Positions 2,061 to 59,347 of a stretch of 64,000 nucleotides of DNA are shown in pieces (position 1 is the stretch's first letter; each line of letters opens with the position of its first letter). Source of the stretch: an uncultured Candidatus Saccharibacteria bacterium (GTDB lineage: Bacteria; Patescibacteriota; Minisyncoccia; Phycocordibacterales; PALSA-1337); assembly GCA_964492835.1 (NCBI GenBank), contig CAZBLC010000001.1, forward strand, positions 19,596-83,595, written 5' to 3'. The notes beneath the pieces are model-generated. The model had not been told where the DNA came from, made no database searches, and was given only the letters and a program-made list of their open reading frames with translations. Made by a program: the position numbers and the translations under genes.

Positions 2061-3575
2061 ATGACAAATACAAATTCAAAACAAGTTACCCTTATCGTCC
2101 TTGATGGATGGGGCTACAGAGAAGATACTACTGCTAATGCCATTAAAGCATCTAAAACTCCTAATTTTGATAGATTATGGTCAACATACCCACATACTCT
2201 ACTAAACGCTTCTGGATTAGCTGTAGGGCTTCCTGAGGGTCAGATGGGTAATAGCGAGATCGGACACCAGACAATTGGTGCTGGTAAGGTTATCGACACT
2301 GAACTAGTTAGAATTGACAAGGCGATTGAAACTGGTGAATTTGCAAAGAACAAAGCACTCATTTCCCTATTCGATCATGTAAAGAAGAATAACTCTACAC
2401 TACATGTTCAGGGTCTTTTGAGTGATGGAGGTGTGCACAGTCATGAAAATCATCTTTTTGCTTTTCTAAGAACTGCTAAGGATGCTGGTATTAAAAATAT
2501 CGCTATTCATATCTTTACAGATGGTAGAGATACTGCCCCACAAAGTGCTTCTAAGTATATTAAAGAACTAGAAGCAGTCCTACTTGAAATCGGTGTTGGA
2601 AAGATTGCATCTATATCTGGAAGATTCTATGCGATGGATAGAGATAATAACTGGGATAGATTGGCTAAGACTGAAAATGCAATCTTTGAATGTAAAGGAA
2701 ATGTATGTAGTATTACTCCTTCTGATTATGTTAGTAACCTATACAAAGAAGGTAAACTAGATGAACACCTGGAACCTATAGTATGTCTAGATTACGAAGG
2801 TAAAGGATGTAGTATCTCTGATAACGATGCTGTCTTTTTCTATAACTTCAGAGCAGATAGAGCACGCATGATTTCAAGTAAGCTTATGGAACGCCAAAAA
2901 GCACAGAATATCTGTTTTGCTACAATGACTGAATATGGAACAGAGTTTAAATGTTTAATTGCATTTCCTCCATCAAAGATTGAGACTACAATTGCTGCAG
3001 AGGTATCTAAGTCTAATCTTTCTCAAGCACATATCGCTGAGACTGAAAAGTTTCCTCATGCTACATATTTCTTAAACGGTGGTGTAGAGAAACCATATCC
3101 TGGAGAGAGACACATAATGCTTGATAGTAGAAAGGATGTACCAACTCATGATCTAGCACCAAAGATGAGAGCTGAGGGTATTGCTGATAAGGCTGTAGAG
3201 GAAATTAATAATGGTACAAACTTTATCTTCATTAACTTTGCAAACCCAGACATGGTTGGACATACAGCAAATGTTCCTGCGATTATAATTGCAATTGAAG
3301 AGACTGATAAGCAACTAGGTAGAGTTATCGAGGCTCTTGAGAAGAAAGGTGGTGTCGCTTTCATAACTGCTGACCATGGTAATGCTGAAGTAAATATTGA
3401 TCCTATAACTGGAAAGAATCATACTTCTCATACGATTAATCCTGTGCCTGCAATAGTTACATCACATGATGTTAAATTAAGAGATGGAGGCGGACTATCT
3501 GATATTGCACCTACAATATTGAAGATGTTTGGTATAGAGAAGCCAGTAGTAATGACTGGACAAAGTCTAGTTTAA
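2061..3575 (+). CDS. gpmI: 2,3-bisphosphoglycerate-independent phosphoglycerate mutase
   Basis: iPGM N-terminus LIVLDGWGYRED, ~504 aa. Follows eno, forming a glycolytic pair. Confidence 0.95.
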   Translation: MTNTNSKQVTLIVLDGWGYREDTTANAIKASKTPNFDRLWSTYPHTLLNASGLAVGLPEGQMGNSEIGHQTIGAGKVIDTELVRIDKAIETGEFAKNKALISLFDHVKKNNSTLHVQGLLSDGGVHSHENHLFAFLRTAKDAGIKNIAIHIFTDGRDTAPQSASKYIKELEAVLLEIGVGKIASISGRFYAMDRDNNWDRLAKTENAIFECKGNVCSITPSDYVSNLYKEGKLDEHLEPIVCLDYEGKGCSISDNDAVFFYNFRADRARMISSKLMERQKAQNICFATMTEYGTEFKCLIAFPPSKIETTIAAEVSKSNLSQAHIAETEKFPHATYFLNGGVEKPYPGERHIMLDSRKDVPTHDLAPKMRAEGIADKAVEEINNGTNFIFINFANPDMVGHTANVPAIIIAIEETDKQLGRVIEALEKKGGVAFITADHGNAEVNIDPITGKNHTSHTINPVPAIVTSHDVKLRDGGGLSDIAPTILKMFGIEKPVVMTGQSLV

Positions 3576-4843
3576 ATTTTTGTAGTTTGGTATCGGATAT
3601 ACAGCATTCTAAAATACTTAACCAAAAGTATTATTAATGTTGTAGTAAACAGACCAAGACCAATACCTGCCATTACATCAGATACCCAGTGCACTCCTAG
3701 ATATATTCTACTAAAGGAGACCGTAAGGAGTAGTAGGGCCACTAGAGAAATTGATATTTCTCTCAATACCATTGAGTTAATTTTAACCAAGAATAGATAT
3801 ACTAGCAGTACAGAGAATGTTGTTATAGCAATTGCATGTCCACTTGGAAAGCTATATCCTGACTCAACAATATATCCGAATTCTGGACGTAATCTCAATA
3901 CCATATTCTTTATGAAGAAAGTAACTAGATATGATCCGCTTAGAGAAAGAAATATTATGATTGAGTCGTAGTATTTCTTTTTATACATAAAGTATGCAAT
4001 ACCAACTAGAGAGTATAGGATGATTGATGATGGACTGAATACATTTGTGATTATATTCATTACAGAAGACAGCATTGGTGTTGAATGAGCGATGAAATAT
4101 GCGTTTGCAAATAGGTCAAATTGTAATAGAAATACCTTATCAGTTAGTGCATCCTGTATTGTTTTGAAGAAAAGGTATAGACCGAATAGGTTAAATATTA
4201 GAGTAATTAATTCATACTTAACAAAGACATGGAAGTGTTTGTTAATAAACCTATATCCCCATATAACTAGAATACCTATAAATATAGCGATAACTATATA
4301 CTTACCAAGTACCGCAGACACAGCATGGTAACCTGCGCCAAATATGTAACCTATACCGATCGAGAATATGGCCCATAGAAATACAGCTATGAAATCATAT
4401 AGCCAAAAACTTTTAATATGTATTCTACTTGCACCTACTATAAACGGAGTAAATGATCTTGTTAGTGGACTGAAGCGACCGAATATAATTGTTTTAGCGG
4501 AATTAGCTTGTATCAAACTCCTAGCCTTGTCTATATACTCTCTTTTGATAAAGAAATATGGACCATACTTATTTACGAAATCAAAACCATACTTATGTCC
4601 AATGTGATATCCCAAAAAGTCTCCAATCATAGAACTTACCAATACAATTCCAAATACTACATACACATTCATCAAATCGATCTTAGATAGAAAACCTGAA
4701 ATAACGACAATGGTATTTCCTGGAACGAACTGTCCCATGATTGGAATACCCTCTAATATACTTGTAATTGATACTAAGATATACCCTCCATGCTCAACAA
4801 TTAACTGTAAATTTTGACCCACGGAGTGTATGAATTGAAACAT
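3572..4843 (-). CDS. DedA-family (SNARE-associated/TVP38) membrane domain fused to a C-terminal PAP2 lipid phosphatase domain
   Basis: N-terminal half carries DedA motifs (ILEGIPIMGQFVPGNTIVVISGF; GRFSPLTRSFTPFIVGASR). C-terminal half carries the three PAP2 motifs (LRLRPEF = KX6RP; SFPSGHA = PSGH; SRIYLGVHWVSDV = SRX5HX3D). Confidence 0.75.
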   Translation of the reverse strand: MFQFIHSVGQNLQLIVEHGGYILVSITSILEGIPIMGQFVPGNTIVVISGFLSKIDLMNVYVVFGIVLVSSMIGDFLGYHIGHKYGFDFVNKYGPYFFIKREYIDKARSLIQANSAKTIIFGRFSPLTRSFTPFIVGASRIHIKSFWLYDFIAVFLWAIFSIGIGYIFGAGYHAVSAVLGKYIVIAIFIGILVIWGYRFINKHFHVFVKYELITLIFNLFGLYLFFKTIQDALTDKVFLLQFDLFANAYFIAHSTPMLSSVMNIITNVFSPSSIILYSLVGIAYFMYKKKYYDSIIIFLSLSGSYLVTFFIKNMVLRLRPEFGYIVESGYSFPSGHAIAITTFSVLLVYLFLVKINSMVLREISISLVALLLLTVSFSRIYLGVHWVSDVMAGIGLGLFTTTLIILLVKYFRMLYIRYQTTKI

Positions 4844-4958
4844 AGAATTATTATGTAAATATTATACCACAAATGCGATAAAATTCTGATAAAATTTTTA
4901 TCACTGATTTCCCCACTAATTGTATGACTTTATCGCTAATCTAGGATATTATCACCTC

Positions 4959-5630
4959 ATGAAAATACTAATCATAGAAGATGATTTGGATATATCTAGC
5001 TATATTAGGAATAACTTTATCGAGGATTCATTTACTGTAGATGTTGCTCGTAATAGCAGTAATGGCTCATATATGGCTCGTACTAACTTCTATGATGTAA
5101 TAGTTATAGATTACGCATTACCTGATAAGGATGGGATATCTTTATGTGTTGAACTTAGAGAGTCTGGAATAGAGACACCTATAATATTTTTAACGAACAA
5201 CAAAGAGATGCGTAAAAGAATCTCTGCCCTTGAGAAAGGAGCTGATGACTATATGACTAAACCCTTCGCACTAGAGGAATTGAGAGCTCGTATACTTGCT
5301 CTAGCTAGGAGACCGAAGCATGTTGAGGATCCAATACTCACAGTCGATGATCTTGTATTGGATACTAACCGAAGAACAGCTCGTAGGGGTAATACTCAGA
5401 TATATTTAACTAGAAAAACGTATAACCTACTTGAATACCTTATGAAAAACAAAGGTACTGTACTATCTAGAGGTGTCATAATGGAGTATGTGTGGAACTC
5501 TGAAGGTGATCCATTCTCAAATACCGTAGAAGCTCATATCCTTTCACTTAGAAAGAAGATTAATGTAGGAGGTAAGAGAAATTTACTTCGTAATATACCT
5601 GGTAGAGGATATATTATTGATACTAACTAG
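4959..5630 (+). CDS. OmpR-family response regulator (receiver + winged-helix); ORF opens at 4920 but MKILIIEDD at 4959 is the likely start
   Basis: Receiver motifs (IIEDD; VIVIDYALPDKDG; KPF) and the C-terminal OmpR/PhoB winged-helix region (LTRKTYNLLEYLMKNKGTVLSR...). No histidine kinase adjacent. Confidence 0.85.
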   Translation: MKILIIEDDLDISSYIRNNFIEDSFTVDVARNSSNGSYMARTNFYDVIVIDYALPDKDGISLCVELRESGIETPIIFLTNNKEMRKRISALEKGADDYMTKPFALEELRARILALARRPKHVEDPILTVDDLVLDTNRRTARRGNTQIYLTRKTYNLLEYLMKNKGTVLSRGVIMEYVWNSEGDPFSNTVEAHILSLRKKINVGGKRNLLRNIPGRGYIIDTN

Positions 5631-7858
5631 TTTAATTTAACTGTACCACTCTGAATATCCTTTATTAACTTATCAACTTGTGTCTTAAGTAGTGGGAATT
5701 TAGTACGAGCAATATTTAGTACTTCTATAGCCTTTGCATTCTGCTTATCAAGAAGATATACATATGCCAATCCTGAATATAGCTCCTGACTATCTGGTGT
5801 ATCCTTTATTAGCTTGTTGTAAATCTCTACAGCTTTAGAATATTTCTTTATACCCACATATGCTCTAATGATATTTGGATCATAGAAGCTCTGATCATTT
5901 GGGAATAGCTTTAGAGCTGTTGCCTCATTACCAGTTGTAATCAATGTTGAAATATAAAATACCTTTGCGTTTATGTTATCCGGAGCTGACTTATATGCAT
6001 TCTCCATTAGGAATATTGCCTCCTTGTCTCTCTTAACATTTAGGTAGTTAGAAGCTAGTTGATACACTATTGTCTGCTTGTTAGGTGATAGTTGATTAGC
6101 TTTTTCAAGTAATGGAGTTCCATTAGCATAATCTGATATTGAATCGTAGAATCCACCTCCAAGGATATATATTCTTGCATCATTTGGTGTTTCCTTTATC
6201 TGATCTTCAATTCCCTTCTTTGCTAGGTTATAGAAATCTATCTTTGTCTTCTCTGGTATTCCATTTTGTCTGATTACTCCTGATGCACAATTAAGTAATT
6301 GTTCTCTAATTTCTTGATTAGATAGACTTAGATCTAGATCTAGTGCTTTAACAAATGAATCTATTGTAACTGTAGGTGGCTTTGTACAAGCTCGTAAACC
6401 ATCAATTAATCTTGTATTTGCTTGTATTGGCTTAATGTTTACAACATATACCATACCAGCAAACAGGATGATGATTATAGGGGTTATTACATAATCTCTT
6501 ATCGTTATATAGTCTTCAGTTGCAATCTGTTCATGCTTTTTGAATAGCTTACAAGGAGTTCCTGGTCTTAGAGTGGATACAAAAGCTAGGAATGTAAAGA
6601 ACATTACATAGCTTGTCTGGTTATCGAATACGAATACATTGTGTATTCCATATCCGACAAGTAATCCGATTAATACTGATTTCTGTGCTACTGTCTGATC
6701 ACTCTTTAAGATATATATTAGAGAAATTACATATAGAGAGAGGTATGCTAGTAGACCTAGTAATCCCCCTGCTACCAACCAATCTAGGAACACACTGTGT
6801 GCTCTATCAAACCATTGTTCATGTGCCCACATCTTAGGATTGTAGTTTGCATTGAAGATATAGTTGAAGTTCTCCTGACCAATTCCGATTATCGCAGTCT
6901 TTACACTTCCAAAAGATTCTTTAACTGCCATTGGCCATATATATCCTCTTGCTTGTGTCTTTGTGTCTGTTATAGATATAGTAGCAATACGTCCTAGTAC
7001 AGAGTTGTTCTGTATCCATTTAGCATCTCTGTTGTAAAAGAATATGATACCCAGAAGGATAATACCTCCGATGATACTTCCTGAAATTATTCTAGACTTA
7101 TTTGTCTGTCCTGTTTCCTTTCTTCCAAGGATCGCATACAGAGCAAGAGTTATTATCACTGCAAGTATCCAACCTAGTATTGTTCCTCTTGTTGCTGTTT
7201 GGAACATTACAAAAGAAAATATAGCTGACAGAATGGTATAGATATAGAAATAGTGATTCTTCTTAGAGTAGTACGCTATTGCCATATACATAGCTATAAA
7301 TGCATTTATTAGCATGTAAATTGCCATATATGCTGAATTACCTAGGGATGCATCTACACGACTTCCTTGATGAGTTTTAGCCCAACCAAAGAACTGGAAT
7401 AGGCCGTATATAGCAGTAATAAAACCAGCTATCAAGATAACATCGAAAAACTTCTTCCAATTCTCTTTTGTAGTAAGTACTGATGAAAGCACCATAATGT
7501 ACATCCATAGATGGACGATTATTATCCAACCCTCCATTCTTTCAAAATTTGACCAGATACTACGTAGAGGATTTAGTCCGAATATGTTTGCTATTAGAGT
7601 TATTACAGTAAATACCGTGACAGCAATAGTTATACCGTTCATCTTAGGTAATATACTTGTATCCTTACCCTTCTCTCTAAAGATTAGTATGACCCACAAT
7701 GCAAACACTATCTCTACCAATATTCTAAATACAAATGCCTTTCCGGAGATGAATGGGAAGAATAGCGGACTGGCTACGTATAAAGGTATAAAAGAAATTG
7801 CTCCAAGACCTATAATAATGGCGTATTTAAAAATACTGTTGTTTGTGGTATTGTTCAT
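5627..7858 (-). CDS. Polytopic membrane protein with a Wzy_C (O-antigen ligase/polymerase-like) core and a C-terminal TPR-repeat domain
   Basis: About 10 predicted TM segments with the FQTATRGTILGW loop typical of O-antigen ligase/Wzy_C. The C-terminal ~250 aa are Tyr/Ala/Leu-rich TPR-like repeats (AYVGIKKYSKAVEIYNKLI...). Confidence 0.6.
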   Translation of the reverse strand: MNNTTNNSIFKYAIIIGLGAISFIPLYVASPLFFPFISGKAFVFRILVEIVFALWVILIFREKGKDTSILPKMNGITIAVTVFTVITLIANIFGLNPLRSIWSNFERMEGWIIIVHLWMYIMVLSSVLTTKENWKKFFDVILIAGFITAIYGLFQFFGWAKTHQGSRVDASLGNSAYMAIYMLINAFIAMYMAIAYYSKKNHYFYIYTILSAIFSFVMFQTATRGTILGWILAVIITLALYAILGRKETGQTNKSRIISGSIIGGIILLGIIFFYNRDAKWIQNNSVLGRIATISITDTKTQARGYIWPMAVKESFGSVKTAIIGIGQENFNYIFNANYNPKMWAHEQWFDRAHSVFLDWLVAGGLLGLLAYLSLYVISLIYILKSDQTVAQKSVLIGLLVGYGIHNVFVFDNQTSYVMFFTFLAFVSTLRPGTPCKLFKKHEQIATEDYITIRDYVITPIIIILFAGMVYVVNIKPIQANTRLIDGLRACTKPPTVTIDSFVKALDLDLSLSNQEIREQLLNCASGVIRQNGIPEKTKIDFYNLAKKGIEDQIKETPNDARIYILGGGFYDSISDYANGTPLLEKANQLSPNKQTIVYQLASNYLNVKRDKEAIFLMENAYKSAPDNINAKVFYISTLITTGNEATALKLFPNDQSFYDPNIIRAYVGIKKYSKAVEIYNKLIKDTPDSQELYSGLAYVYLLDKQNAKAIEVLNIARTKFPLLKTQVDKLIKDIQSGTVKLN

Positions 7859-7867
7859 GATAATAAG

Positions 7868-9151
7868 ATGATATCACACTATAAAAACAAACTCTATTAC
7901 TTACTAAAAGCAAGTGAGAAATATACAAAAACGGACATGATATACCTAATTAGAGGTGGTTTTTGGCTTACTCTAGCTAATGTATTAACATCAGCAATGG
8001 TGTTTATAATGGCTATCGTATTTGCAAATCATATACCAGCTCATGAATATGGGGTATATAAATATTTCCTATCAGTACTTGGAATATTGTCGATCACAAC
8101 ATTGACAGGTATAGGAGGCATGGTCTCACAAGCAGTTGCACGAGGACTCGAAGGATCGTTAATAGAAGGATTAAAGGCAAAAATACGTTGGGGTACTGTT
8201 GGTGGAGTAGTTAGTATTTGTATCGGAATTTATTATTATATGAACGGAAATAATGAATTAGCGACTGTATTTATGTTAGCTTGTCTATTTATTCCTTTTA
8301 TGGACTCTTTTCATATATATCAAAATTATTTACAGGGTAAAAAAATATTCAATGTTTCTTCACGCTACATTACAATTAGTCAATTCTTTGCTACAGCAAT
8401 CATGATAACCATCGTATTGATAACAAGTAATATTTTTATTATCTTACTTACATATCTTATATCATGGACACTTGTTAGGTTATTCTTTTTTGTAAAAACA
8501 ATCAAACTTTACCCACCCAACAAAGAAAGCGATCCCAACACAATAATAATGGGTAAACACTCAAGCTTTATTGATATAATAGCTACCCTAATAGGGTCCC
8601 TTGACTCGATACTGATTTTCCATTATTTAGGTTCAATTGAACTTGCAGTCTATAGTTTTGCCATAGCACCCGTAACACAAATGGTTAGTCTGTTTAGAAA
8701 CATACCGACACTAGCTATGCCTAAAATGGCCAATCGTCATGTAAATGAAATAAAACAATTACTATATAAGAGGATTTTTGTAATATTTATTATATCAATT
8801 ATGGTTGTTATATTATATATGATTTTCGTCCCATATATTTATCAGATATTTTTCCCAAAATATCTGATGTCGATTGAACTATCACGCATATACGCCCTAA
8901 CAATATTAATTTCTATACCATTAACAATGTTGAGTTCAGCAATAAATGCAAAAATAAATATGTTACCAAAAAAAATACTTTATTTATGGAACATTCCAGG
9001 TTTTATATCTACTATTTTTATCTTCGTATCTATTCAAAAAATAGGTGTAGAATCTGTTGTTTATGCTAGGATATTATTACTTCTTGCAACAGCTGCAATA
9101 TCTGCCTATCTTTGGTTTTATATTGTAAAAAAGCAAAATCAACAGCAGTAA
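7868..9151 (+). CDS. Polysaccharide biosynthesis/oligosaccharide flippase-like membrane protein (Wzx/MOP-like)
   Basis: 427 aa, ~12 hydrophobic segments, no soluble domains. Divergent from the Wzy_C gene at the head of the glycan locus. Confidence 0.5.
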   Translation: MISHYKNKLYYLLKASEKYTKTDMIYLIRGGFWLTLANVLTSAMVFIMAIVFANHIPAHEYGVYKYFLSVLGILSITTLTGIGGMVSQAVARGLEGSLIEGLKAKIRWGTVGGVVSICIGIYYYMNGNNELATVFMLACLFIPFMDSFHIYQNYLQGKKIFNVSSRYITISQFFATAIMITIVLITSNIFIILLTYLISWTLVRLFFFVKTIKLYPPNKESDPNTIIMGKHSSFIDIIATLIGSLDSILIFHYLGSIELAVYSFAIAPVTQMVSLFRNIPTLAMPKMANRHVNEIKQLLYKRIFVIFIISIMVVILYMIFVPYIYQIFFPKYLMSIELSRIYALTILISIPLTMLSSAINAKINMLPKKILYLWNIPGFISTIFIFVSIQKIGVESVVYARILLLLATAAISAYLWFYIVKKQNQQQ

Positions 9152-36816: not shown

Positions 36817-38499
36817 TTACTCTACCTTAAGTACGTTCCTAAGTACATCTTCTGAAACCTCCTTTTTTGTGTCGGTATTTGGAGTTGTAGTCTGCGTTTT
36901 GCCAGCATTCTGAGTGTTTCCTAGTATAGATGCTAATGCATTTTTTAATTCATTTACACGCTCTGGTTGTGCATCCTTCTTATGATTATTCTTTGGTGTA
37001 TTTGAGAGTGAATTCAGTGATACTGAATTAAGTTTAGGCATTGGACTTACAAATGTCTTTGTAGGCTCTGCTACTTTTACAACAGGCTTTTCTACTACAA
37101 CTTGAGGTGCAGGTGGTGCTATTGGCTTTGGTTCTGGAGTAACTGGCTTTGGTACCTCTACAGGTTTAGGTGCTGGAGCAATATCTTTTGGTTTGTCCTT
37201 CATTACTGGCTTTATCGGCATCATCCAGTCATCAATTGCTTTTTCAACATCAACTCTCTTGCTTGCAAACTGTGATCTTGAACTCTCTATAACCCGTTCC
37301 ATACTTGAACTCTCAGGTTTTGCAATTGGAGGCAGGGTAGTTGCAGAGAATGGCGCTGAACTTACTCCGTCTATCATGAGTTTTAAGTATATTTGATATA
37401 TACCCAAGTTAACTATATCTTCTGCTGTAAATTGTGGTGAGAATTCTTTCTCGAGTACTTCAGCATCAAATGCTCCTACACGGAATACAATCATTGTTCC
37501 AACGTTACCGAATACAGCATTACGTACTTCTTCTTCCATTTGTTCGATGTACTGGTGAGCAATTGTAAGATTAAGTTTGTATTTTCTAGCCTCTGAAAGA
37601 ATATCTGCAAATGATTCATTGGCGAATGACTGGAACTCGTCTACAAAGAGATAGAAGTTAGGGAGTGTCTTAAGCACACGATCTGGTACGTCTGCGCGAG
37701 ATAGCGCAGCTAGATATATTTTTGTAATTATCATTCCTCCTAATAGGTTTGCATTTGATTCTCCAATTCTTCCTTTTGATAGGTTAACGATAAAAATCTT
37801 ACCTTCATCCATCATCTTACGAATATTGAATGATGATTTTGGCTGCCCTATCATGTTTCGTATTAGCGCATTGGCTGTGAACTGTCCGATCTTGTTTTGT
37901 ATCGCTGGCACTGCTTCTGCAGCCATTCTTTCTGTATAGTTTGCAAACTCTTGTACCCAGAATGCTTTAACTGATGAATCTGTGACATGAGAGATCACAA
38001 GCTTTCTATATTCTTTGTCTGAAAGCATACGATTTACTCCAAGTAGAGTTGCATCTGGATATTCAAGTAGAGCAAGTAGGGTGTTTGTAAGGATATATTC
38101 CATACGAGCTGACCAAGCATCTTGCCAGATCTTCTTGAATGTACTCATTAGTCCAGATACTACTAGATGTCTTTTGTCTGGGTCTACGTTCTCAAGTACG
38201 TTAAAGGATATTGGATAGTCCATATCGAATGGAGCAAAATATACTACATCCTTCTGTCTATGTTCTGGTACATATTCTAGCAGTAGCTCTGCAGTCTTTC
38301 CGTGAGGATCAATGAATGCCATTCCTTCCCCATTCTTAATATCCTGAACAGCCATGTTCTCAAGTACAGTTGATTTTCCCATACCTGTCTTTCCGATAAC
38401 GTACACATGCTTAGTCCTATCTTTTGCTTTAATACCAAAAGTTACCTTTTTGTTTCTAGAGTCTGTCTGTCCAAAATATGTTATTTTTTCGTCGTTCAT
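36817..38499 (-). CDS. Soluble P-loop NTPase of the TraG/VirD4/HerA-FtsK (DUF87-like) superfamily with a Pro/Lys/Val-rich C-terminal tail
   Basis: Walker A VIGKTGMGKST and Walker B LFVDEF. TraG-D_C-like IAHQYIEQ region. No N-terminal TM helices. C-terminal low-complexity PAPKPVEVPKPVTPEPKPIAPPAPQVVVEKPVVKV. Confidence 0.6.
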   Translation of the reverse strand: MNDEKITYFGQTDSRNKKVTFGIKAKDRTKHVYVIGKTGMGKSTVLENMAVQDIKNGEGMAFIDPHGKTAELLLEYVPEHRQKDVVYFAPFDMDYPISFNVLENVDPDKRHLVVSGLMSTFKKIWQDAWSARMEYILTNTLLALLEYPDATLLGVNRMLSDKEYRKLVISHVTDSSVKAFWVQEFANYTERMAAEAVPAIQNKIGQFTANALIRNMIGQPKSSFNIRKMMDEGKIFIVNLSKGRIGESNANLLGGMIITKIYLAALSRADVPDRVLKTLPNFYLFVDEFQSFANESFADILSEARKYKLNLTIAHQYIEQMEEEVRNAVFGNVGTMIVFRVGAFDAEVLEKEFSPQFTAEDIVNLGIYQIYLKLMIDGVSSAPFSATTLPPIAKPESSSMERVIESSRSQFASKRVDVEKAIDDWMMPIKPVMKDKPKDIAPAPKPVEVPKPVTPEPKPIAPPAPQVVVEKPVVKVAEPTKTFVSPMPKLNSVSLNSLSNTPKNNHKKDAQPERVNELKNALASILGNTQNAGKTQTTTPNTDTKKEVSEDVLRNVLKVE

Positions 38500-38560
38500 A
38501 TGGAGCTTTAATATGTTTATATTCTAGCATGAAATACTTATGGTAAGTATTTAATTTTCC

Positions 38561-38594
38561 CCATAAACAAAACTCCCGCTTGGAAGCGGGAGAG
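38561..38594 (-). terminator. Rho-independent terminator downstream of the pilin gene
   Basis: ctcccgctt-cc-aagcgggag hairpin followed on the minus strand by TTTTGTTTAT. Confidence 0.6.
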
Positions 38595-38616
38595 ATGTTT
38601 AAAAAGAATTTTATAA

Positions 38617-39081
38617 CTAGCAAGTAACGTCTGGTGCAGTACCTCCTAGCATAGTTGCTGCTCCTTCCTTAGTGTTACCTGTACTATCAACACAGTAGAA
38701 GTTACCTGATCCACCTCCTAGTCTAGCCTCAACTGCCCAAGCAGATCCACTTGTATAACATGTCAAAGTTGTTCCAGATGGATAACTGTCTGTATCTGAA
38801 AGATTTACGATTCCACTTGTTGAATCAGTCCAAGGTGTTGATGAAGGTGTTGCTGAACATCCGTTTGTATTCGCAGATGCTCCGTAGTTTCCTGGAGTAA
38901 CATAATATGTCTCCATAGCTCCTCTTATACTAGCCAATTGACCCTTGATCTTAGCATCATTACCCTTTGTTCTAGCTGTGTTCAATGAAGCTAATACCAC
39001 TGATGATAGAATACCGATGATAGCGATAACTACAAGCAACTCAATCAATGTAAAACCTTTTTCTAAATATGATTTCTTCAT
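38617..39081 (-). CDS. Type IV pilin (class III signal peptide prepilin)
   Basis: MKKSYLEKG|FTLIELLVVIAIIGIL, the canonical prepilin peptidase site with Glu+5. 154 aa, C-terminal Cys pair. Confidence 0.9.
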   Translation of the reverse strand: MKKSYLEKGFTLIELLVVIAIIGILSSVVLASLNTARTKGNDAKIKGQLASIRGAMETYYVTPGNYGASANTNGCSATPSSTPWTDSTSGIVNLSDTDSYPSGTTLTCYTSGSAWAVEARLGGGSGNFYCVDSTGNTKEGAATMLGGTAPDVTC

Positions 39082-39221
39082 AACGAAATTAATTAACCTA
39101 AATAAACTTTAATAATAATTACTTATGGCATAAGTATATCAAACTATAGATAAAGATAGCAACGCTATGTGGATAACCTTGTTGTATTCAACAAGAGCTG
39201 TCCTGCATAGGATAACTCTAG

Positions 39222-40430
39222 CTACTGTGAACTCGCCACGTTGTATATAGGAATAAGAACTGATGCAAGAAGTGTAGCCACTCCAAGTCCAAGTAGCACA
39301 ATCATTGCCGGCTCAATAAGATCAACCAGAGCATCTACAGCTGTAGTAACCTCTCTAGCATAGAATCGAGCTAGAGTTTTTAGAATATTACCAAGCTCTC
39401 CTGTCTCTTCTCCCACCTTCATCATTTGAATCATAATACCAGGAATCTCACCATTAACTGAAAGGGATTCTGATACTGTCTTACCAGCCTTAACTGACTC
39501 TACAGCATCAGCAAGTAGCTTATGATATATACTGTTGTTAATAACGGAAGAAGTAAGTTCTAGAGCGCGGATCATAGGAATACCAGATACTAGCATTGTA
39601 TTCATGTTGTCTGATAGTCTTGCCCAATACAGTTTTCTAAATAGGTTACTTAGATATGGGATACTAAGTTTTACTTGGTCAAATATAACTGCACCTGAAG
39701 GAGTACGTATATATCTAACAAGTAGAAAACCTAGAACTATAACTACCCCGAGCATTACGAATCCATATGCAACAAAGAAATTACTAATACCCAATACTAT
39801 TTTAGTATACACAGGTATCTCCTGTCCTGATTCAACCAAGATTGCACTAATCTTTGGAATAACCATAGTGAACATAAGGATCATAACTGTAATGAAGGTA
39901 GACATAACGAATGCTGGGTATATAAGGGCACTTTTTGCCTTTGATACTAGCTCGTATGTACGATCCAAATAGTCAGCTAGGTAACTAAATGTCTCATTTA
40001 GCTTTCCTGACTCCTCTCCAGCCTTCACCATACTTACATAAAACTCTGAGAATACCTTAGGATGTTTTTCAAGTGCAGCTGAAATAGCACTACCAGCCTG
40101 TAGATCATCTGCAATTACTAGAAGCTTTGCACCCAACACCTTGTTCTCTGCTTCAGATCCAAGAAGTCTAAATACACGGAGTGCAGAAACCTGAGCTTCA
40201 AAGAGTGTAGCTAGTTGTCTTGAGAGAATAACTACATCCTTGTTAGATACTCTGTCGAAGAATGATAGATTCATTGAAAGCACTCCTCCCTTTTTACTAG
40301 CTTCTACAATTGAAGTAATTACCAAACCTCTTCTTTGCAGTGAAGCGATAGCAATATCCACATTTGCAGCATCTATTGATCCTGTTTTTGGTGCACCTGT
40401 TTGATCTACTGATTGATAATTAAAAAGCAT
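39222..40430 (-). CDS. pilC: Type IV pilus assembly platform protein (GspF family)
   Basis: 402 aa with duplicated GspF domains and 3 TM segments. Position in the pilus operon. Confidence 0.9.
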   Translation of the reverse strand: MLFNYQSVDQTGAPKTGSIDAANVDIAIASLQRRGLVITSIVEASKKGGVLSMNLSFFDRVSNKDVVILSRQLATLFEAQVSALRVFRLLGSEAENKVLGAKLLVIADDLQAGSAISAALEKHPKVFSEFYVSMVKAGEESGKLNETFSYLADYLDRTYELVSKAKSALIYPAFVMSTFITVMILMFTMVIPKISAILVESGQEIPVYTKIVLGISNFFVAYGFVMLGVVIVLGFLLVRYIRTPSGAVIFDQVKLSIPYLSNLFRKLYWARLSDNMNTMLVSGIPMIRALELTSSVINNSIYHKLLADAVESVKAGKTVSESLSVNGEIPGIMIQMMKVGEETGELGNILKTLARFYAREVTTAVDALVDLIEPAMIVLLGLGVATLLASVLIPIYNVASSQ

Positions 40431-40437
40431 ATAAAAA

Positions 40438-41496
40438 TTATATCATTCTTTCCAAATTTTTGGGATTGTTAGAGTTAAGATATGCGTTCTCAACTGTAAT
40501 CTCTCCTTTTCTAACAAGTTCAGCTAAACATCTATTCATATCAATCATACCTTCTTGTGAACTTGTCTCAATAACTGTATTAATTTCATGTATTCTCTTC
40601 TCTCGTATTAGGTTTGCAACAGCAGAGTTGTTAATCAATAGCTCATATGCAGGAATCAATCCTCCTGAAATACGTGGAATCAATCTCTGTGAGAATATAG
40701 CTGTCATACTACCAGCTAGCTGAATACGAATTTGATCCTGCTGATTTGCTGGGAATGAGTCAATAATACGGTTTAGTGTCTGTGCAGCGTTATTTGTATG
40801 TAATGTAGAGAATACTAAGTGTCCTGTCTCAGCTGCAGTTACGGCTGTCTGTATTGTCTCTGGATCACGCATCTCACCCACCAAAGCAACATCGATATCC
40901 TGTCTAAACATTGCAACTAGTGCGTCTTTGAAATCAGGGGTATCTATCTTAACCTCTCTCTGATCAATTATTGATTTCTTTGATTCATATAGATACTCAA
41001 CTGGATCCTCAATAGTCATTATGTGCTCATTTCTAGTCTGGTTAATTATCTCAATCAAAGCAGCTAGTGTTGTAGACTTACCCTGACCAATTGGTCCTAC
41101 ACAAAGAAAGAATCCTTGTGGCTTTCTGGTAAATGATTCAAGTATTGGAGGAAGATTAAGATCAGCTATTGTCTTAATTTGTTTTGGTATCAAACGTAGT
41201 GCAACAGAAAGTACACCTTGATGATAGTATGCATTTCCACGGAAACGAATGTTAGTAAGGCTGTATGAAAAATCTACATCTTTATCTTTTAAAAGTAGCA
41301 CCTTATTCTCCTCACTAAGAAATTCATTAATATACCCCTTCATATCCTCATTTGATATTACAGATTTCTTAACTAGGGGTATTAGACTTCCAGAAACACG
41401 AATGAATGGAGTACGTCCTTCAGCCAAATGAAGATCTGATGCTCCTTCATTTATAACTGTACTTACTAATAGCTCAATTTCTTTTTTATAATCCAT
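40438..41496 (-). CDS. pilT: Type IV pilus retraction ATPase; ORF extends to 41544 but MDYKKEIELL is the likely start
   Basis: PilT-type motifs LVGEMRDPETI, GHLVFSTLHTNNAAQT, Walker A GPIGQGKST. ~350 aa. Confidence 0.9.
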   Translation of the reverse strand: MDYKKEIELLVSTVINEGASDLHLAEGRTPFIRVSGSLIPLVKKSVISNEDMKGYINEFLSEENKVLLLKDKDVDFSYSLTNIRFRGNAYYHQGVLSVALRLIPKQIKTIADLNLPPILESFTRKPQGFFLCVGPIGQGKSTTLAALIEIINQTRNEHIMTIEDPVEYLYESKKSIIDQREVKIDTPDFKDALVAMFRQDIDVALVGEMRDPETIQTAVTAAETGHLVFSTLHTNNAAQTLNRIIDSFPANQQDQIRIQLAGSMTAIFSQRLIPRISGGLIPAYELLINNSAVANLIREKRIHEINTVIETSSQEGMIDMNRCLAELVRKGEITVENAYLNSNNPKNLERMI

Positions 41497-41500
41497 AATA

Positions 41501-41890
41501 TTATTGTTTCTTAGAATGCGAATAAATTTTCTCGACTTCAGCAAGAAGTTCAGAAGGTATAGTCGTAGCCTTTATTATATACCCATCTACGTTTAATTTC
41601 TTTGCTCGAGCTATATCATCAGGGAGACCTTGGTTTGTAAGCATGATTACAACTGTCTTTTTAATTAAATTCTCTTTCCTTAGAGCAGTAAGTAATTCAA
41701 TTCCATCCATTCCAGGCATGATCAAATCTAGTATTAGTACGTCTGGTTCCATTCCTCCCTTCAACACTTTCAATGCTTCTTCTGTGGTTGAACATGTATG
41801 CACAGAATGTTTAGCATTAGTAAACTTAGTGATGTACATATCAAGAAGAAACTTATCATCATCTACAAAAAGTACATTTAATGGTTTCAT
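41501..41890 (-). CDS. Single-domain CheY-like response regulator receiver (PilH-like)
   Basis: VLFVDDD...DVLILDLIMPGMDG...KPF receiver motifs. 129 aa, no output domain. Confidence 0.8.
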   Translation of the reverse strand: MKPLNVLFVDDDKFLLDMYITKFTNAKHSVHTCSTTEEALKVLKGGMEPDVLILDLIMPGMDGIELLTALRKENLIKKTVVIMLTNQGLPDDIARAKKLNVDGYIIKATTIPSELLAEVEKIYSHSKKQ

Positions 41891-41891
41891 A

Positions 41892-43613
41892 TTATAGTTT
41901 ATTTACTTCTTCAAATGGTATCTTTCTCTCGAATGCTTTAATCATCGCATCCTCCTTAATTGAGAGCATTCCCTTTTGTCTAAGCAGTCTACTTATCTCA
42001 AGTTCAGTAGGACTCTTTAGAATTACACTCTCTATCTCCTTGTCCATTCTAAATGCCTCAAACACAGCCATACGTCCTCTTGTTCCCTTAGGACAATCTG
42101 GAGTTGGATCAATACCATATACAGTATCCTTAAATGGAATATCTCCTTTGTACTGTTCTGGTAGATCTGAGAATTGCTTATCAATTATCATTTTTATACT
42201 TCCATCAACTGGTATTGGTTTACCTGAATTTGGAGGTAGCATAGATACAAGTCTCTGAGCGATAGCTAGAACAAGAGTTGGTGCGATAAGGTAAGGATCC
42301 ACACCCATGTCGATAAGACGAGGGATGACACCAGCTGAGTTGTTGGTGTGGAGTGTAGAGAATACCAAGTGTCCTGTTAGAGCAGCTTGTACAGCTAGCT
42401 GAGCAGTCTCCTTGTCTCGGATCTCTCCGATCATGATCACATCAGGGTCCTGGCGTAGTGTTGTTCTAAGTCCAGATGCAAATGTATACCCAATCTCAGC
42501 ATGCACCTGAGACTGACTTACCCCATCCATGTTGTACTCGATAGGGTCTTCGAGAGAAAGTACGTTCATTCCCTCCTTATCAACTTCATTCAACATAGAG
42601 TACAGAGTTGTAGACTTTCCAGATCCCGTAGGTCCAGTAATTAGGATTAGTCCGTATGGTCTAGCTATCGCCTCTTTAACCAATTCTAGATTCTTTGGTG
42701 TAAGTCCGATCTCATCGATCTTCTTTACTCCCTTTTCTTGATCCAAGATACGCATCACGACTTTCTCTCCATAATATGCTGGGAATGTAGATACACGGAA
42801 GTCTATCTTTCTTCCATCGATACGTGCAGAGAATCTACCGTCTTGAGGCTTTCTCTTTTCATCAAGCTTCATGTTACAAAGCACTTTGATACGAGCAACA
42901 ACCGCATTGTGTACTTGCGGTGGTAGTACTAGACTTGTATTAAGTGTTCCATCAACACGGAAACGCACTCTAATCTTGTCACGCATATGCTCAATGTGCA
43001 CATCGGATGCATTTCCCTCAGTTGCATAACGAACGATAGTTGCCACAATCTTAACAACCGGAGCATCTTCTATAATTACAGTATTCTGCTTCTTGTCATT
43101 CGTAGTCTTTGCATTCTTTAGATCTACAGTACTGTCCTTATCAACAGACAATACAGACTCTAGTTCTGTAAGAGCCTTAGATACTTCTCCTCCAATTCCT
43201 TTATATGACTCTAAAACTTTTTGGTAGTCATCAATAGTTATTAAAAATACTTTGTATGGAACATTACCCTTTGAAGCAATGAAGTTTAGAGCATCTCGAG
43301 CTTCTATATTATCTGGGTTAACTATACCCACTTCAAGTACTCCTTCACTTAGACCTATCGGTACGAACTTATAGTGTGCAGCTGATTCTTCTGGTATATA
43401 GTCTAGAGCTTCAAATGGTACTGTAGTCTCACCTAAACTTCTTGTAGGTATGTTAAGTAGCTCTCCACGTGCAGCAAGTATATCTTCAGGATGTACTCCC
43501 TTTTCAATCAATACTTGATCAAGATTCTCACCGTCTGCAGTAAGTTTCTTTATCTCAGTTATATCATCTTTTGTTAAAAGATTTTTGTTTAAAAGAATAT
43601 CTGTAACACTCAT
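41892..43613 (-). CDS. pilB: Type IV pilus assembly/extension ATPase (GspE family) with N-terminal T2SSE_N domain
   Basis: Walker A GPTGSGKST, Asp box, His box GHLVFSTLHTN. 573 aa. Confidence 0.92.
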   Translation of the reverse strand: MSVTDILLNKNLLTKDDITEIKKLTADGENLDQVLIEKGVHPEDILAARGELLNIPTRSLGETTVPFEALDYIPEESAAHYKFVPIGLSEGVLEVGIVNPDNIEARDALNFIASKGNVPYKVFLITIDDYQKVLESYKGIGGEVSKALTELESVLSVDKDSTVDLKNAKTTNDKKQNTVIIEDAPVVKIVATIVRYATEGNASDVHIEHMRDKIRVRFRVDGTLNTSLVLPPQVHNAVVARIKVLCNMKLDEKRKPQDGRFSARIDGRKIDFRVSTFPAYYGEKVVMRILDQEKGVKKIDEIGLTPKNLELVKEAIARPYGLILITGPTGSGKSTTLYSMLNEVDKEGMNVLSLEDPIEYNMDGVSQSQVHAEIGYTFASGLRTTLRQDPDVIMIGEIRDKETAQLAVQAALTGHLVFSTLHTNNSAGVIPRLIDMGVDPYLIAPTLVLAIAQRLVSMLPPNSGKPIPVDGSIKMIIDKQFSDLPEQYKGDIPFKDTVYGIDPTPDCPKGTRGRMAVFEAFRMDKEIESVILKSPTELEISRLLRQKGMLSIKEDAMIKAFERKIPFEEVNKL

Positions 43614-43617
43614 AAAA

Positions 43618-43935
43618 TTAATTTACTGGTACGAACGGATTAGCACGACCAACATTCTGCTCTGGTATTGCAATTGTATAGTCTACAAGCGACTGGTATA
43701 CCGCACTCTTAAAGATTGAATCATCAATCTTTAATGAACTTATCTGATTAAGTAGGTTAACAATTCTCTGGCTTGATGCTTGTGCATCACCAGCCTCAAC
43801 TGATCCTTCAGTTGCAAGTGATGAGATTGATACATCACTTGGATTACCTTTGAAATAGAAGAAGAGACCTAGAGCTACTACTACGATAGCTATTAGTGCG
43901 AAGAATGTTCCTTTTGATGGTGTTTTTTGTTGCAT
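43618..43935 (-). CDS. Small single-TM protein in the pilus operon (PilP-like position), hypothetical
   Basis: N-terminal TM FFALIAIVVVALGLFFYF. 105 aa. Sits between pilO-like and pilB. Confidence 0.35.
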   Translation of the reverse strand: MQQKTPSKGTFFALIAIVVVALGLFFYFKGNPSDVSISSLATEGSVEAGDAQASSQRIVNLLNQISSLKIDDSIFKSAVYQSLVDYTIAIPEQNVGRANPFVPVN

Positions 43936-43936
43936 A

Positions 43937-44488
43937 TTATTGTTTTAGCCAAAATGTCTTAACCTCTACTCCATAATCGAAGTTTCCATTCTCACCTGCT
44001 TTCAAACTAATCTTAGATACCTGCATTATTCTAAGACTCACTTCCAAATCTCTTAGGAAGTTTTGGAATGTTTGATAGTCAGTACTTAGATCAAATGACA
44101 TTGTAACTGTATTGTATTCACCGCTCGACACAAAACTTGTATCCTCACTCTTTGATGCTTCTTTATTAGCTGTACTTGTCTTTACGTTCTTTATTGAAAT
44201 ATTGTGTCTAGCAGCTATACCGTTTAGGTCTATTATTAATCTAACGTTATCAACGTTATCAGGAACAATCTTATCAAGTCTCTCCTGATCTTCAGGATCA
44301 ATCTTGTTATATGCAGCTAGTACTTGATCTCTCTTCTTGATCAACTCTTCAGAATTCTTTAATGCTGTCTTATATTCACTGTTAACAGCCATAACAGCAC
44401 GCACCTTATCAATCTCCACACGGGTAAAAGTAAAATATATACCTATTGATAGAATTATTAGTATTAAAGGTGTAGCATTCTTATTCAT
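43937..44488 (-). CDS. pilO: PilO-like pilus inner-membrane alignment protein
   Basis: N-terminal TM, coiled-coil, then a periplasmic domain. Operon position. Confidence 0.5.
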   Translation of the reverse strand: MNKNATPLILIILSIGIYFTFTRVEIDKVRAVMAVNSEYKTALKNSEELIKKRDQVLAAYNKIDPEDQERLDKIVPDNVDNVRLIIDLNGIAARHNISIKNVKTSTANKEASKSEDTSFVSSGEYNTVTMSFDLSTDYQTFQNFLRDLEVSLRIMQVSKISLKAGENGNFDYGVEVKTFWLKQ

Positions 44489-44492
44489 ATAT

Positions 44493-45125: not shown

Positions 45126-45143
45126 TGAGATAATTATAGTTGA

Positions 45144-59281: not shown

Positions 59282-59347
59282 CCATCCAGCATATCAAACC
59301 GAGATGAAATCCGTATAAAATTTTGATAAAATCTGGATAAAATTTAC

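What the first reader, a model, noticed from the sequence alone, without database searches (positions are those of the whole stretch)
3572..4843. DedA::PAP2 domain fusion - a possible Rosetta-stone for undecaprenyl-phosphate recycling
One polypeptide carries a DedA-family domain and a PAP2 phosphatase domain with all three catalytic motifs. DedA members were recently implicated as Und-P flippases. The PAP2 family contains the BcrC/PgpB-type Und-PP phosphatases. A fusion would couple dephosphorylation of the lipid carrier to its re-flipping. It sits next to a very large Wzx/Wzy-type glycan locus that consumes lipid carrier.
Basis: partly seen in the sequence, partly recalled or inferred. Interest (0 to 1): 0.55.

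Follow-up and report, generated by a model that had tools for sequence, protein, structure and literature searches.

The report
Known DedA–PAP2 lipid-carrier recycling fusion
This is a real, intact gene that joins a probable lipid-carrier flippase domain (DedA) to a lipid phosphatase domain (PAP2), but the fusion and the reasoning drawn from it were already published in 2022-2023 and the family is already named in public annotation, so it is an ordinary member of a known family.

Summary

Roney & Rudner, Sit et al. and Todor et al. (2022-23) used exactly this DedA-PAP2 fusion as evidence for Und-P flipping. NCBI names relatives "bifunctional DedA family/phosphatase PAP2 family protein". At least 163 clusters at 50% identity exist.

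Three cautions apply:
- The only fused member tested genetically, P. aeruginosa PA4011, did not behave as a C55-P flippase.
- The second acidic residue of DedA (YqjA D51) is N43 here and non-acidic in 94% of fused relatives.
- Adjacency to the glycan locus holds only in the closest relatives.

The most conserved neighbour is a divergent OmpR-type response regulator, with conserved 11-bp-period repeats over the fusion gene's promoter.

Verdict: new member of a known kind, low interest.

The parts
3572..4843 (-). CDS of the 423-aa DedA-PAP2 fusion protein (stop codon 3572-3574). It overlaps the stop of the convergent gpmI gene by 4 bp.
   Evidence: full-length homologs
4229..4843 (-). DedA (VTT/SNARE-assoc, COG0586-like) domain, residues 1-205. 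It has two helical hairpins (residues 12-54 and 115-138) and three long helices (60-85, 143-170, 181-204).
   Evidence: Pfam PF09335; NCBIfam DedA/UptA sub-threshold hits; AF2 secondary structure
4751..4753 (-). E31, equivalent to YqjA E39 and UptA E32; invariant in the family.
4715..4717 (-). N43, at the position of YqjA D51 in the PG-D motif. It is not acidic here; in the family it is H, Q or N.
4457..4477 (-). R123...R129 (GRFSPLTR), equivalent to YqjA R130/R136 and UptA R112/R118, the phosphate-binding arginines of the second hairpin.
3575..4219 (-). PAP2 membrane lipid phosphatase domain, residues 209-423, six TM helices, PgpB/YodM-like.
3884..3910 (-). PAP2 motif C1, K312-x6-R319-P320.
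3836..3847 (-). PAP2 motif C2, P333-S-G-H336.
   Evidence: read directly from the DNA
3677..3712 (-). PAP2 motif C3, S378-R-x5-H385-x3-D389 (H385 is the nucleophile position).
4861..4871 (-). Extended -10 element TGTGGTATAAT, 17 nt upstream of the ATG; probable promoter of the fusion gene.
   Evidence: read from sequence; same element in L001, L002 and L006. The generic promoter scan did not list it because there is no -35 match.
4877..4895 (-). Two direct repeats ATTTTATC with 11-bp period, overlapping the -35 position; candidate OmpR/PhoB-type response-regulator site.
   Evidence: 0 mismatches; 5 sites in the window vs 0.53 expected; in 80 loci the motif occurs only upstream of the fusion gene, in L001, L002 and L006
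4960..5630 (+). Divergent OmpR-family response regulator (receiver + winged-helix). The listed ORF starts at TTG 4920, but the likely start is ATG 4960 (MKILIIEDD). It is the most conserved neighbour of the fusion gene and its putative regulator.
   Evidence: Pfam; synteny in L001, L002, L003, L006 and L008

Best explanation
The gene encodes a bifunctional inner-membrane protein of a Patescibacteria-type bacterium that carries out two consecutive steps of polyprenyl-phosphate carrier recycling.

Shown here:
- It is one polypeptide with an intact DedA (COG0586-like) domain followed by an intact PgpB/BcrC-like PAP2 domain.
- All PAP2 catalytic residues are present.
- The DedA residues E31, R123, R129 and W157 match those needed for C55-P binding or function in UptA and YqjA.

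Inferred from charge distribution and from the known topologies of UptA (N-out) and PAP2 enzymes (active site outside):
- The chain starts outside, and the K/R-rich segment 84-144 with the arginine hairpin faces the cytoplasm.
- The DedA domain ends inside, the PAP2 domain starts inside, and the PAP2 domain displays C1/C2/C3 on the outer face.

Inferred mechanism:
- Und-PP released outside by peptidoglycan or glycan polymerisation is hydrolysed to Und-P by H385/H336/K312/R319/R379.
- The neighbouring DedA domain then returns the phosphate head group to the inner leaflet.
- Position 43 is Asn rather than the second proton-binding Asp. Transport may therefore rely on E31 alone, or be equilibrative and pulled by product supply outside and consumption inside.

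Inferred regulation: the gene is probably transcribed from an extended -10 promoter activated by the divergent OmpR-type response regulator through tandem 11-bp-period repeats.
For: - Single ORF and both domains above cutoff.
- Canonical motifs with invariant catalytic residues.
- YodM and E. coli PgpB both have UndPP phosphatase activity: PMC11804483.
- AF2 model with pLDDT 87 and pTM 0.78.
- K/R counts for loops predicted inside: residues 84-144 have 11, 198-209 have 3, 288-290 have 3, 351-361 have 2, 409-423 have 4. Outside loops have 0-2 apart from the catalytic K/R.
- UptA N-out topology and the E32/R112/R118/W146 binding network: PMC11474028.
- E39/R130/R136 equivalents conserved.
- NCBIfam best DedA-side hits are E. 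coli DedA and UptA.
- Published synteny/fusion argument.
- The fusion is conserved over at least 163 clusters at 50% identity and occurs in several phyla.
- No second PAP2, UppP or DedA gene among the window ORFs scanned with Pfam (those of at least 150 aa beyond position 9000).
- Conserved regulator and operator.
Against: - PA4011, the only DedA-PAP2 fusion tested genetically, neither rescued a PA4029 (C55-P flippase) mutant nor aggravated it (PMC12893004).
- The YqjA D51 equivalent is N43. It is non-acidic in 197 of 210 fused relatives, although D51 is reported as essential in E. coli DedAs (PMC9881974).
- Scores against the NCBIfam UptA equivalogs are far below cutoff (51 vs 250 bits).
- The closest solved PAP2, YodM, prefers PGP.
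- Some relatives keep the fusion but have lost the PAP2 catalytic residues, so the association does not always need phosphatase activity.
- No biochemical data exist for this clade.
- The topology is a prediction only; model coordinates could not be inspected.
Confidence: 0.55

Rival explanations
1. It is a phospholipid-handling module rather than a carrier-lipid module. The PAP2 domain dephosphorylates phosphatidylglycerol-phosphate, phosphatidic acid or a scavenged host lipid at the outer leaflet. The DedA domain scrambles or transports the glycerophospholipid, as PetA and the eukaryotic VMP1/TMEM41B do.
For: - The closest solved relative of the PAP2 half is the PGP phosphatase YodM/PgpB (PMC11804483).
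- Some DedA family members act on phospholipids (PetA, cited).
- UptA also binds anionic phospholipids.
- The PA4011 authors propose 'membrane lipid remodeling'.
- The loss of D51 sets this DedA domain apart from canonical COG0586 members.
Against: - The best DedA-side family hits are E. coli DedA and UptA (COG0586), the subfamily tied to Und-P.
- The arginine pair and the E/W network used for C55-P binding are conserved.
- PGP is made on the cytoplasmic leaflet, whereas this active site is predicted to face outside.
- YodM and PgpB also hydrolyse UndPP.
Confidence: 0.2
2. It is an UndPP (or other lipid-PP) phosphatase whose DedA domain no longer transports. Having lost the second proton-coupling acid, the DedA domain serves as a lipid-binding, substrate-delivery or dimerisation module for the PAP2 domain. 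If so, the fusion says nothing about flipping.
For: - The D51 equivalent is non-acidic in 94% of fused relatives across phyla.
- PA4011 cannot substitute for a bona fide flippase.
- UptA binds C55-PP as well as C55-P, with Kd 15 vs 6 uM.
Against: - E31, R123/R129 and W157 remain under strong constraint, being invariant or at least 90% conserved in 55 sequences.
- Pseudo-phosphatase relatives keep the DedA signature residues, which suggests the DedA half has a function of its own.
- His, the commonest replacement for D51, can still be protonated.
Confidence: 0.2
3. Artefact: two separate genes have been joined by a sequencing or assembly frameshift, or the PAP2 domain is degenerate.
For: None found.
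Against: - The frame is uninterrupted.
- More than 100 independent full-length collinear homologs come from different assemblies and sources.
- In 40 of 41 loci checked, one ORF covers essentially the whole match; the exception is L015.
- The catalytic residues are invariant.
Confidence: 0.01

Closest known systems
NCBI-annotated 'bifunctional DedA family/phosphatase PAP2 family protein' of Patescibacteria MAGs (e.g. P0039, P0054, P0063, P0112, P0113)
   Same: Same length (about 420-430 aa), same domain order and collinear over 94-100% of the query, at 37-53% identity. JGI names some relatives 'undecaprenyl-diphosphatase'.
   Different: Nothing architectural differs. This exact sequence (P0001, NCBI source, 108.5-kb contig) carries no name in the collection.
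Pseudomonas aeruginosa PA4011 (437 aa, PF09335 + PF01569)
   Same: Same N-terminal DedA plus C-terminal PAP2 architecture and similar size. It is the only member studied genetically (PMC12893004).
   Different: It is a distant proteobacterial member; related proteobacterial fusions are about 22-25% identical to the query. The proteobacterial fusions examined have S/T/V/A at the D51 position, against N/H/Q here. PA4011 coexists with five other DedAs, whereas no other DedA is seen in this window.
B. subtilis UptA (YngC) / E. coli DedA, YqjA, YghB (COG0586 Und-P flippases)
   Same: PF09335 domain, with E39/R130/R136 equivalents conserved and the Trp of the E32-W146 network present. The predicted N-out, C-in topology also matches.
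   Different: Those proteins are stand-alone, about 200-220 aa. They carry an acidic D51, whereas this protein has N43. The match to the NCBIfam UptA equivalogs is 42-51 bits against cutoffs of 250-300.
B. subtilis PgpB/YodM (PDB 5JKI, 6FMX); also E. coli PgpB, BcrC, YbjG, SepP, LpxE
   Different: Those are stand-alone enzymes. Identity is only 23-29%. All NCBIfam equivalog scores are far below cutoff (PgpB 34/261, SepP 31/250, PRK11837 28/229, LpxE 18/177), so no substrate assignment can be transferred.
DUF368(PopT)-PAP2 fusions and dedA-uppP / dedA-pap2 gene pairs
   Same: They follow the same logic, linking a carrier-lipid phosphatase to a candidate Und-P translocase (Sit et al. preprint; Roney & Rudner preprint).
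   Different: They use a different translocase family or separate genes. None was seen in this window.

Membership tests
PAP2 superfamily (PF01569), membrane lipid phosphate phosphatases | Profile match above the curated cutoff | tested here: met
   61.5 bits vs 27.2, residues 296-411
PAP2 superfamily (PF01569), membrane lipid phosphate phosphatases | Three catalytic motifs: KX6RP, PSGH, SRX5HX3D | tested here: met
   K312..RP320, PSGH333-336 and SR..H385..D389 are exact. K312, R319, P320, P333, S334, H336, R379, H385 and D389 are invariant in 55 homologs.
PAP2 superfamily (PF01569), membrane lipid phosphate phosphatases | Six-TM helical fold superposable on solved PgpB-type enzymes | tested here: met
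PAP2 superfamily (PF01569), membrane lipid phosphate phosphatases | Active site on the extracytoplasmic face | tested here: inconclusive
   The positive-inside count strongly favours it: the KKK288-290 loop, the 351-361 loop and the C-terminal tail fall inside, while the C1/C2/C3 loops fall outside. This is a prediction only. No dedicated topology predictor or model coordinates were available.
Und-PP phosphatases of the PAP2 type (BcrC / PgpB / YbjG / SepP equivalogs) | Score above an NCBIfam equivalog cutoff | tested here: not met
   PgpB 34.4/261, SepP 30.7/250, PRK11837 28.1/229. The protein is a PAP2 enzyme but is not assignable to any characterised orthologous group.
Und-PP phosphatases of the PAP2 type (BcrC / PgpB / YbjG / SepP equivalogs) | C55-PP hydrolysis in vitro or complementation in vivo | not testable with these tools
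   Needs biochemistry or genetics.
DedA family, COG0586 / UptA-type Und-P translocases | PF09335 match above the cutoff | tested here: met
   57.5 bits vs 33.9, residues 40-166. The best NCBIfam hits are E. coli DedA (PRK10847, 71.7 bits) and UptA.
DedA family, COG0586 / UptA-type Und-P translocases | NCBIfam UptA equivalog cutoff | tested here: not met
   51.1/250 and 42.5/300 bits
DedA family, COG0586 / UptA-type Und-P translocases | Conserved Arg pair at the tip of the second re-entrant helix (YqjA R130/R136; UptA R112/R118) | tested here: met
   R123 (R in 50, K in 5 of 55) and R129 (55/55).
DedA family, COG0586 / UptA-type Und-P translocases | Two membrane-embedded acidic residues of the first re-entrant helix (YqjA/YghB E39 and D51) | tested here: not met
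   E31 is present and invariant, but the D51 position is N43. In the family it is H 46, Q 5, N 3, Y 1 of 55. It is non-acidic in 197 of 210 fused relatives.
DedA family, COG0586 / UptA-type Und-P translocases | Two re-entrant hairpins plus three TM helices | tested here: inconclusive
   The AF2 secondary structure shows broken-helix hairpins at 12-54 and 115-138 and long helices at 60-85, 143-170 and 181-204, which is consistent. Membrane embedding could not be checked without coordinates, and no solved DedA structure was found.
DedA family, COG0586 / UptA-type Und-P translocases | Und-P translocation activity | not testable with these tools
   Needs MX2401/amphomycin assays or reconstitution.
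'Bifunctional DedA family/phosphatase PAP2 family protein' (NCBI product name; the architecture described by Roney & Rudner, Sit et al. and Todor et al.) | N-terminal DedA and C-terminal PAP2 in one polypeptide, collinear with named members | tested here: met
   (named members P0039, P0054, P0063, P0112 and P0113 at 37-53% identity, 94-100% coverage)

The most novel reading that the evidence does not exclude
In DedA-PAP2 fusions generally, and in this Patescibacteria clade in particular, the DedA domain may have lost the second proton-binding acid. Position D51 becomes H/Q/N here and S/T/V/A in Pseudomonadota, and stays E only in Actinomycetota. The domain would then no longer be a PMF-driven Und-P flippase. 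It would instead act as a proton-independent hand-off or lipid-binding partner of the phosphatase, and some relatives even keep it next to a catalytically dead PAP2 domain. That would explain why PA4011 cannot replace PA4029. It would also mean the widely cited 'Rosetta-stone' fusion reports on a mechanistically different DedA subtype. In genome-reduced Patescibacteria this single, response-regulator-controlled protein could be the only carrier-lipid recycling device.
Probability: 0.2. Interest if true: 0.5.

Novelty: new member of a known kind. Interest (0 to 1): 0.2.

Why it matters
As stated, the finding adds little. The DedA-PAP2 fusion was part of the original published evidence that DedA proteins flip undecaprenyl phosphate, and the architecture is routinely annotated.

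Some modest value remains.
- The Patescibacteria clade is large, with at least 163 clusters at 50% identity, and compact at about 423 aa. It could be a convenient minimal system for asking biochemically whether dephosphorylation and flipping are physically coupled.
- The near-universal loss of the D51 acid in fused DedA domains is a testable clue to why the one fusion tested genetically (PA4011) did not act as a flippase.
- The conserved response-regulator operator suggests the gene is under signal-dependent control in these reduced genomes.

Tried and rejected
1. Frameshift or two separate ORFs was rejected. The frame is uninterrupted, and in 40 of 41 related loci a single ORF covers essentially the whole match.
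2. Non-canonical PAP2 motifs was rejected.
3. Functional linkage to the Wzx/Wzy glycan locus was weakened. The Wzy_C-TPR neighbour is shared only by L001 and L002. Deeper relatives share only the response regulator and/or the housekeeping eno/gpmI genes. No priming phosphoglycosyltransferase was found in the window.
4. I looked for a partner histidine kinase and for a second UppP, PAP2, DedA or DUF368 gene in the window. None was found among the ORFs scanned (those of at least 150 aa beyond position 9000). The window is only 64 kb of the genome, so absence from the genome is not shown.
5. The Foldseek search against afdb50, meant to retrieve UniProt fusions such as PA4011, could not be run because the library was unavailable.
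6. The search for a solved DedA structure found none by sequence or by fold.
E. coli YqjA from MG1655 served as the DedA reference instead.
8. The literature search for this fusion in Patescibacteria/CPR returned nothing specific.
9. The inter-domain geometry of the AF2 model could not be examined, because coordinates and PAE are not exposed. Only pTM 0.78 and a pLDDT dip (67) at the 201-210 linker are known.
Full report
**1. The observation**

Window 3572-4843 on the minus strand is a single 423-aa ORF that starts with ATG and has no internal stop. Its stop overlaps the stop of the convergent phosphoglycerate mutase gene (2061-3575) by 4 bp. Pfam places a DedA/VTT domain (PF09335) at residues 40-166, scoring 57.5 bits against a cutoff of 33.9. 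It places a PAP2 domain (PF01569) at residues 296-411, scoring 61.5 bits against a cutoff of 27.2.

The three PAP2 signature motifs are exact: K312-x6-R319-P320, P333-S-G-H336 and S378-R-x5-H385-x3-D389. In a 55-sequence alignment of full-length homologs at 35-82% identity, K312, R319, P320, P333, S334, H336, R379, H385 and D389 are invariant.

**2. The PAP2 half**

By sequence, the closest solved protein is B. subtilis YodM/PgpB (5JKI). The match has E = 4e-19 and covers query residues 219-409. An AlphaFold2 model built on the 55-sequence alignment is confident, with mean pLDDT 87 and pTM 0.78.

- Foldseek against the PDB gives 5JKI as the only hit with E <= 0.001, with a target-normalised TM-score of 0.76.

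YodM and E. coli PgpB hydrolyse both phosphatidylglycerol-phosphate and undecaprenyl-diphosphate (PMC11804483). No NCBIfam equivalog (PgpB, SepP, PRK11837, LpxE) comes near its cutoff. The domain is therefore a bona fide membrane PAP2 lipid phosphatase whose substrate cannot be fixed by homology.

**3. The DedA half**

The best NCBIfam hits are E. coli DedA (PRK10847, 71.7 bits) and the two UptA models (51 and 42 bits). All are far below the equivalog cutoffs. I aligned the family to E. coli YqjA, taken from MG1655. Three of the four residues described as essential for COG0586 DedAs (PMC9881974) are conserved: E39 corresponds to E31 (55/55), R130 to R123 (R 50, K 5) and R136 to R129 (55/55).

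W157 is also invariant. It aligns with the YqjA Trp. It probably corresponds to UptA W146, which with E32, R112 and R118 forms the network implicated in C55-P binding by native mass spectrometry (PMC11474028).

The fourth residue, D51 of the PG-D motif, is N43 here. In the 55 homologs it is H (46), Q (5), N (3) or Y (1).

- Across loci from other phyla the position is E in Actinomycetota fusions and S/T/V/A in Pseudomonadota fusions.
- Over all 210 fused relatives retrieved, 197 are non-acidic.

I did not find this recurrent loss of the second putative proton-binding acid mentioned in the papers I read. I could not test how common it is in unfused DedAs.

**4. Topology**

The AF2 helices combined with K/R positions give loops rich in positive charge at five places:

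- residues 84-144: 11 K/R, containing the arginine hairpin
- residues 198-209: 3 K/R, at the domain junction
- residues 288-290: KKK
- residues 351-361: 2 K/R
- residues 409-423: 4 K/R

The N-terminus and loops 55-59, 171-181 and 227-270 are poor in K/R, as are the C1/C2 and C3 loops apart from their catalytic K/R.

This yields an N-out, C-in DedA domain, which matches the N-out topology reported for UptA. That domain feeds directly into an N-in PAP2 domain whose active site faces outside, as in PgpB and BcrC. The two halves are therefore topologically compatible with sequential outside dephosphorylation and inward flipping. This remains a prediction, since coordinates, PAE and a dedicated topology predictor were not available.

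**5. How common the fusion is and what is already known**

The 120 best proteins in the 5.8-billion-protein search are almost all about 420-450 aa, and all but one carry both Pfam domains. Several are named by NCBI as 'bifunctional DedA family/phosphatase PAP2 family protein' and by JGI as 'undecaprenyl-diphosphatase'. Against 1.84 billion representatives at 50% identity, 163 score E <= 1e-30, and most are full-length single-stretch matches.

In GTDB species genomes, full-length fusions occur in several groups:

- Patescibacteria
- contigs labelled as archaeal
- Actinomycetota
- Desulfuromonadales
- Pseudomonadota
- Chloroflexota

[quoted passage not shown] - Todor et al. list PF01569 fusions within COG0586 (PMC9881974).
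- P. aeruginosa PA4011 is a member that has been deleted and overexpressed. It did not rescue, and did not aggravate, loss of the flippase PA4029, and the authors conclude it is likely not involved in C55-P flip-back (PMC12893004).

No paper in the library treats the Patescibacteria clade specifically.

**6. Genomic context**

The window has 34% GC. Downstream of the fusion gene lie a Wzy_C-TPR protein (5627-7858), a Wzx-like Polysacc_synt protein (7868-9151) and a cluster of about 31 kb that extends to about 36812. The cluster holds glycosyltransferases, methyltransferases, sugar-nucleotide enzymes, an asparagine synthase and a deacetylase. A type IV pilus cluster and housekeeping genes follow.

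However, tblastn of the window's neighbours against 80 related loci shows the Wzy-like gene next to the fusion only in the two closest loci, L001 and L002. The divergent OmpR-type response regulator is adjacent in L001, L002, L003, L006 and L008, where fusion identity falls as low as 38-40%. The eno and gpmI genes are nearby in seven loci. The glycan-locus adjacency is thus shallow and gives little functional evidence. No priming phosphoglycosyltransferase, histidine kinase or second PAP2, UppP or DedA gene was found among the window ORFs scanned with Pfam, which beyond position 9000 were those of at least 150 aa.

**7. Regulation (a side result)**

Upstream of the fusion gene, on its sense strand, lies an extended -10 box, TGTGGTATAAT (4861-4871). 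There is no -35 match. In its place are two direct repeats, ATTTTATC-N3-ATTTTATC (4877-4895), with an 11-bp period. The same arrangement precedes the fusion gene in L001, L002 and L006, the last with three repeats.

In 1.74 Mb of sequence (80 loci, both strands), a degenerate version of the motif occurs four times. All four lie 40-90 bp upstream of the fusion gene. Tandem repeats at one helical turn that replace the -35 element are typical of OmpR/PhoB-type activators. This is established knowledge and was not tested here. The adjacent regulator is the obvious candidate.

Within the window the motif recurs as four tandem units at 59303-59343 (-), upstream of an unannotated 219-aa ORF that has only a weak HTH signature. 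The window holds 5 matches against 0.53 expected from shuffles.

**8. Verdict**

The feature is real and intact. The best-supported function is a bifunctional Und-PP phosphatase / Und-P translocase (confidence about 0.55). Two live rivals remain: phospholipid handling, and a non-transporting DedA module. They are kept alive by the PA4011 genetics, the missing D51 acid, the YodM-like phosphatase half, and relatives whose PAP2 domain is catalytically dead.

The architecture, its name and the Rosetta-stone argument are already known, so this is a new member of a known kind and of low interest. The D51 pattern and the conserved response-regulator operator are minor additions that would be worth a line in a study of this family.

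Noticed in passing
window 59303-59343 (-), upstream of ORF 58622-59281 (-): Four tandem 11-bp-period units (AATTTTATCC AGATTTTATCA AAATTTTATAC GGATTTCATCT) carry the same motif as the fusion-gene operator. They lie between the ftsH stop and an unannotated 219-aa ORF that has only weak N-terminal HTH hits. The window holds 5 motif matches against 0.53 expected. This may be a second target of the OmpR-type regulator at 4960-5630.
   Followed up: partly
proteins P0130, P0148, P0206, P0227, P0253 (relatives): These relatives of about 415-437 aa keep the DedA-PAP2 fused architecture and the DedA E and R signature residues, but have lost the PAP2 catalytic residues (K312, H336 and H385 equivalents). 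They look like pseudo-phosphatase fusions.
   Followed up: partly
loci L018, L019, L029-L032, L034, L036, L042, L043, L046, L047, L056, L057, L068: Most Pseudomonadota (and Desulfuromonadales) DedA-PAP2 ORFs are about 670-900 aa by first-possible start, roughly 250 aa or more longer than the Patescibacteria form. This points to an additional domain, not identified; for those matched near the ORF start it lies C-terminal. Some representative proteins of 680-711 aa agree.
   Followed up: no
L007 (Archaeon BMS3Abin17) and L013 (Candidatus Nanoarchaeia archaeon): Full-length fusions at 36-42% identity sit on contigs labelled as archaeal. Either Patescibacteria contigs were mis-binned or the gene was transferred to DPANN-type archaea.
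   Followed up: no
window 4920-5630 (+): The OmpR-family response regulator has no histidine kinase among the window ORFs scanned (at least 150 aa), so it appears orphan here. The ORF as listed starts at TTG 4920, but the conserved receiver start MKILIIEDD begins at ATG 4960.
   Followed up: partly
window 5627-36812: The large glycan cluster has a Wzy_C-TPR protein, a Wzx-like flippase, about 12 glycosyltransferases, several methyltransferases, two APH-like kinase-fold ORFs, AsnB and a deacetylase. No recognisable priming polyprenyl-phosphate glycosyl- or phosphoglycosyl-transferase (PF00953/PF02397) was found among ORFs of at least 150 aa.
   Followed up: partly
window 36817-46277: A VirD4/TrwB-like coupling ATPase (36817-38499) is followed by a type IV pilus cluster: a pilin with an N_methyl motif, PilC-like T2SSF, two T2SSE ATPases and PilM. 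This is typical of Patescibacteria.
   Followed up: no
window 54779-55840 (-): A 353-aa ORF carries a LAGLIDADG_3 homing-endonuclease domain and lies next to a large DUF3160 protein (52132-54669).
   Followed up: no
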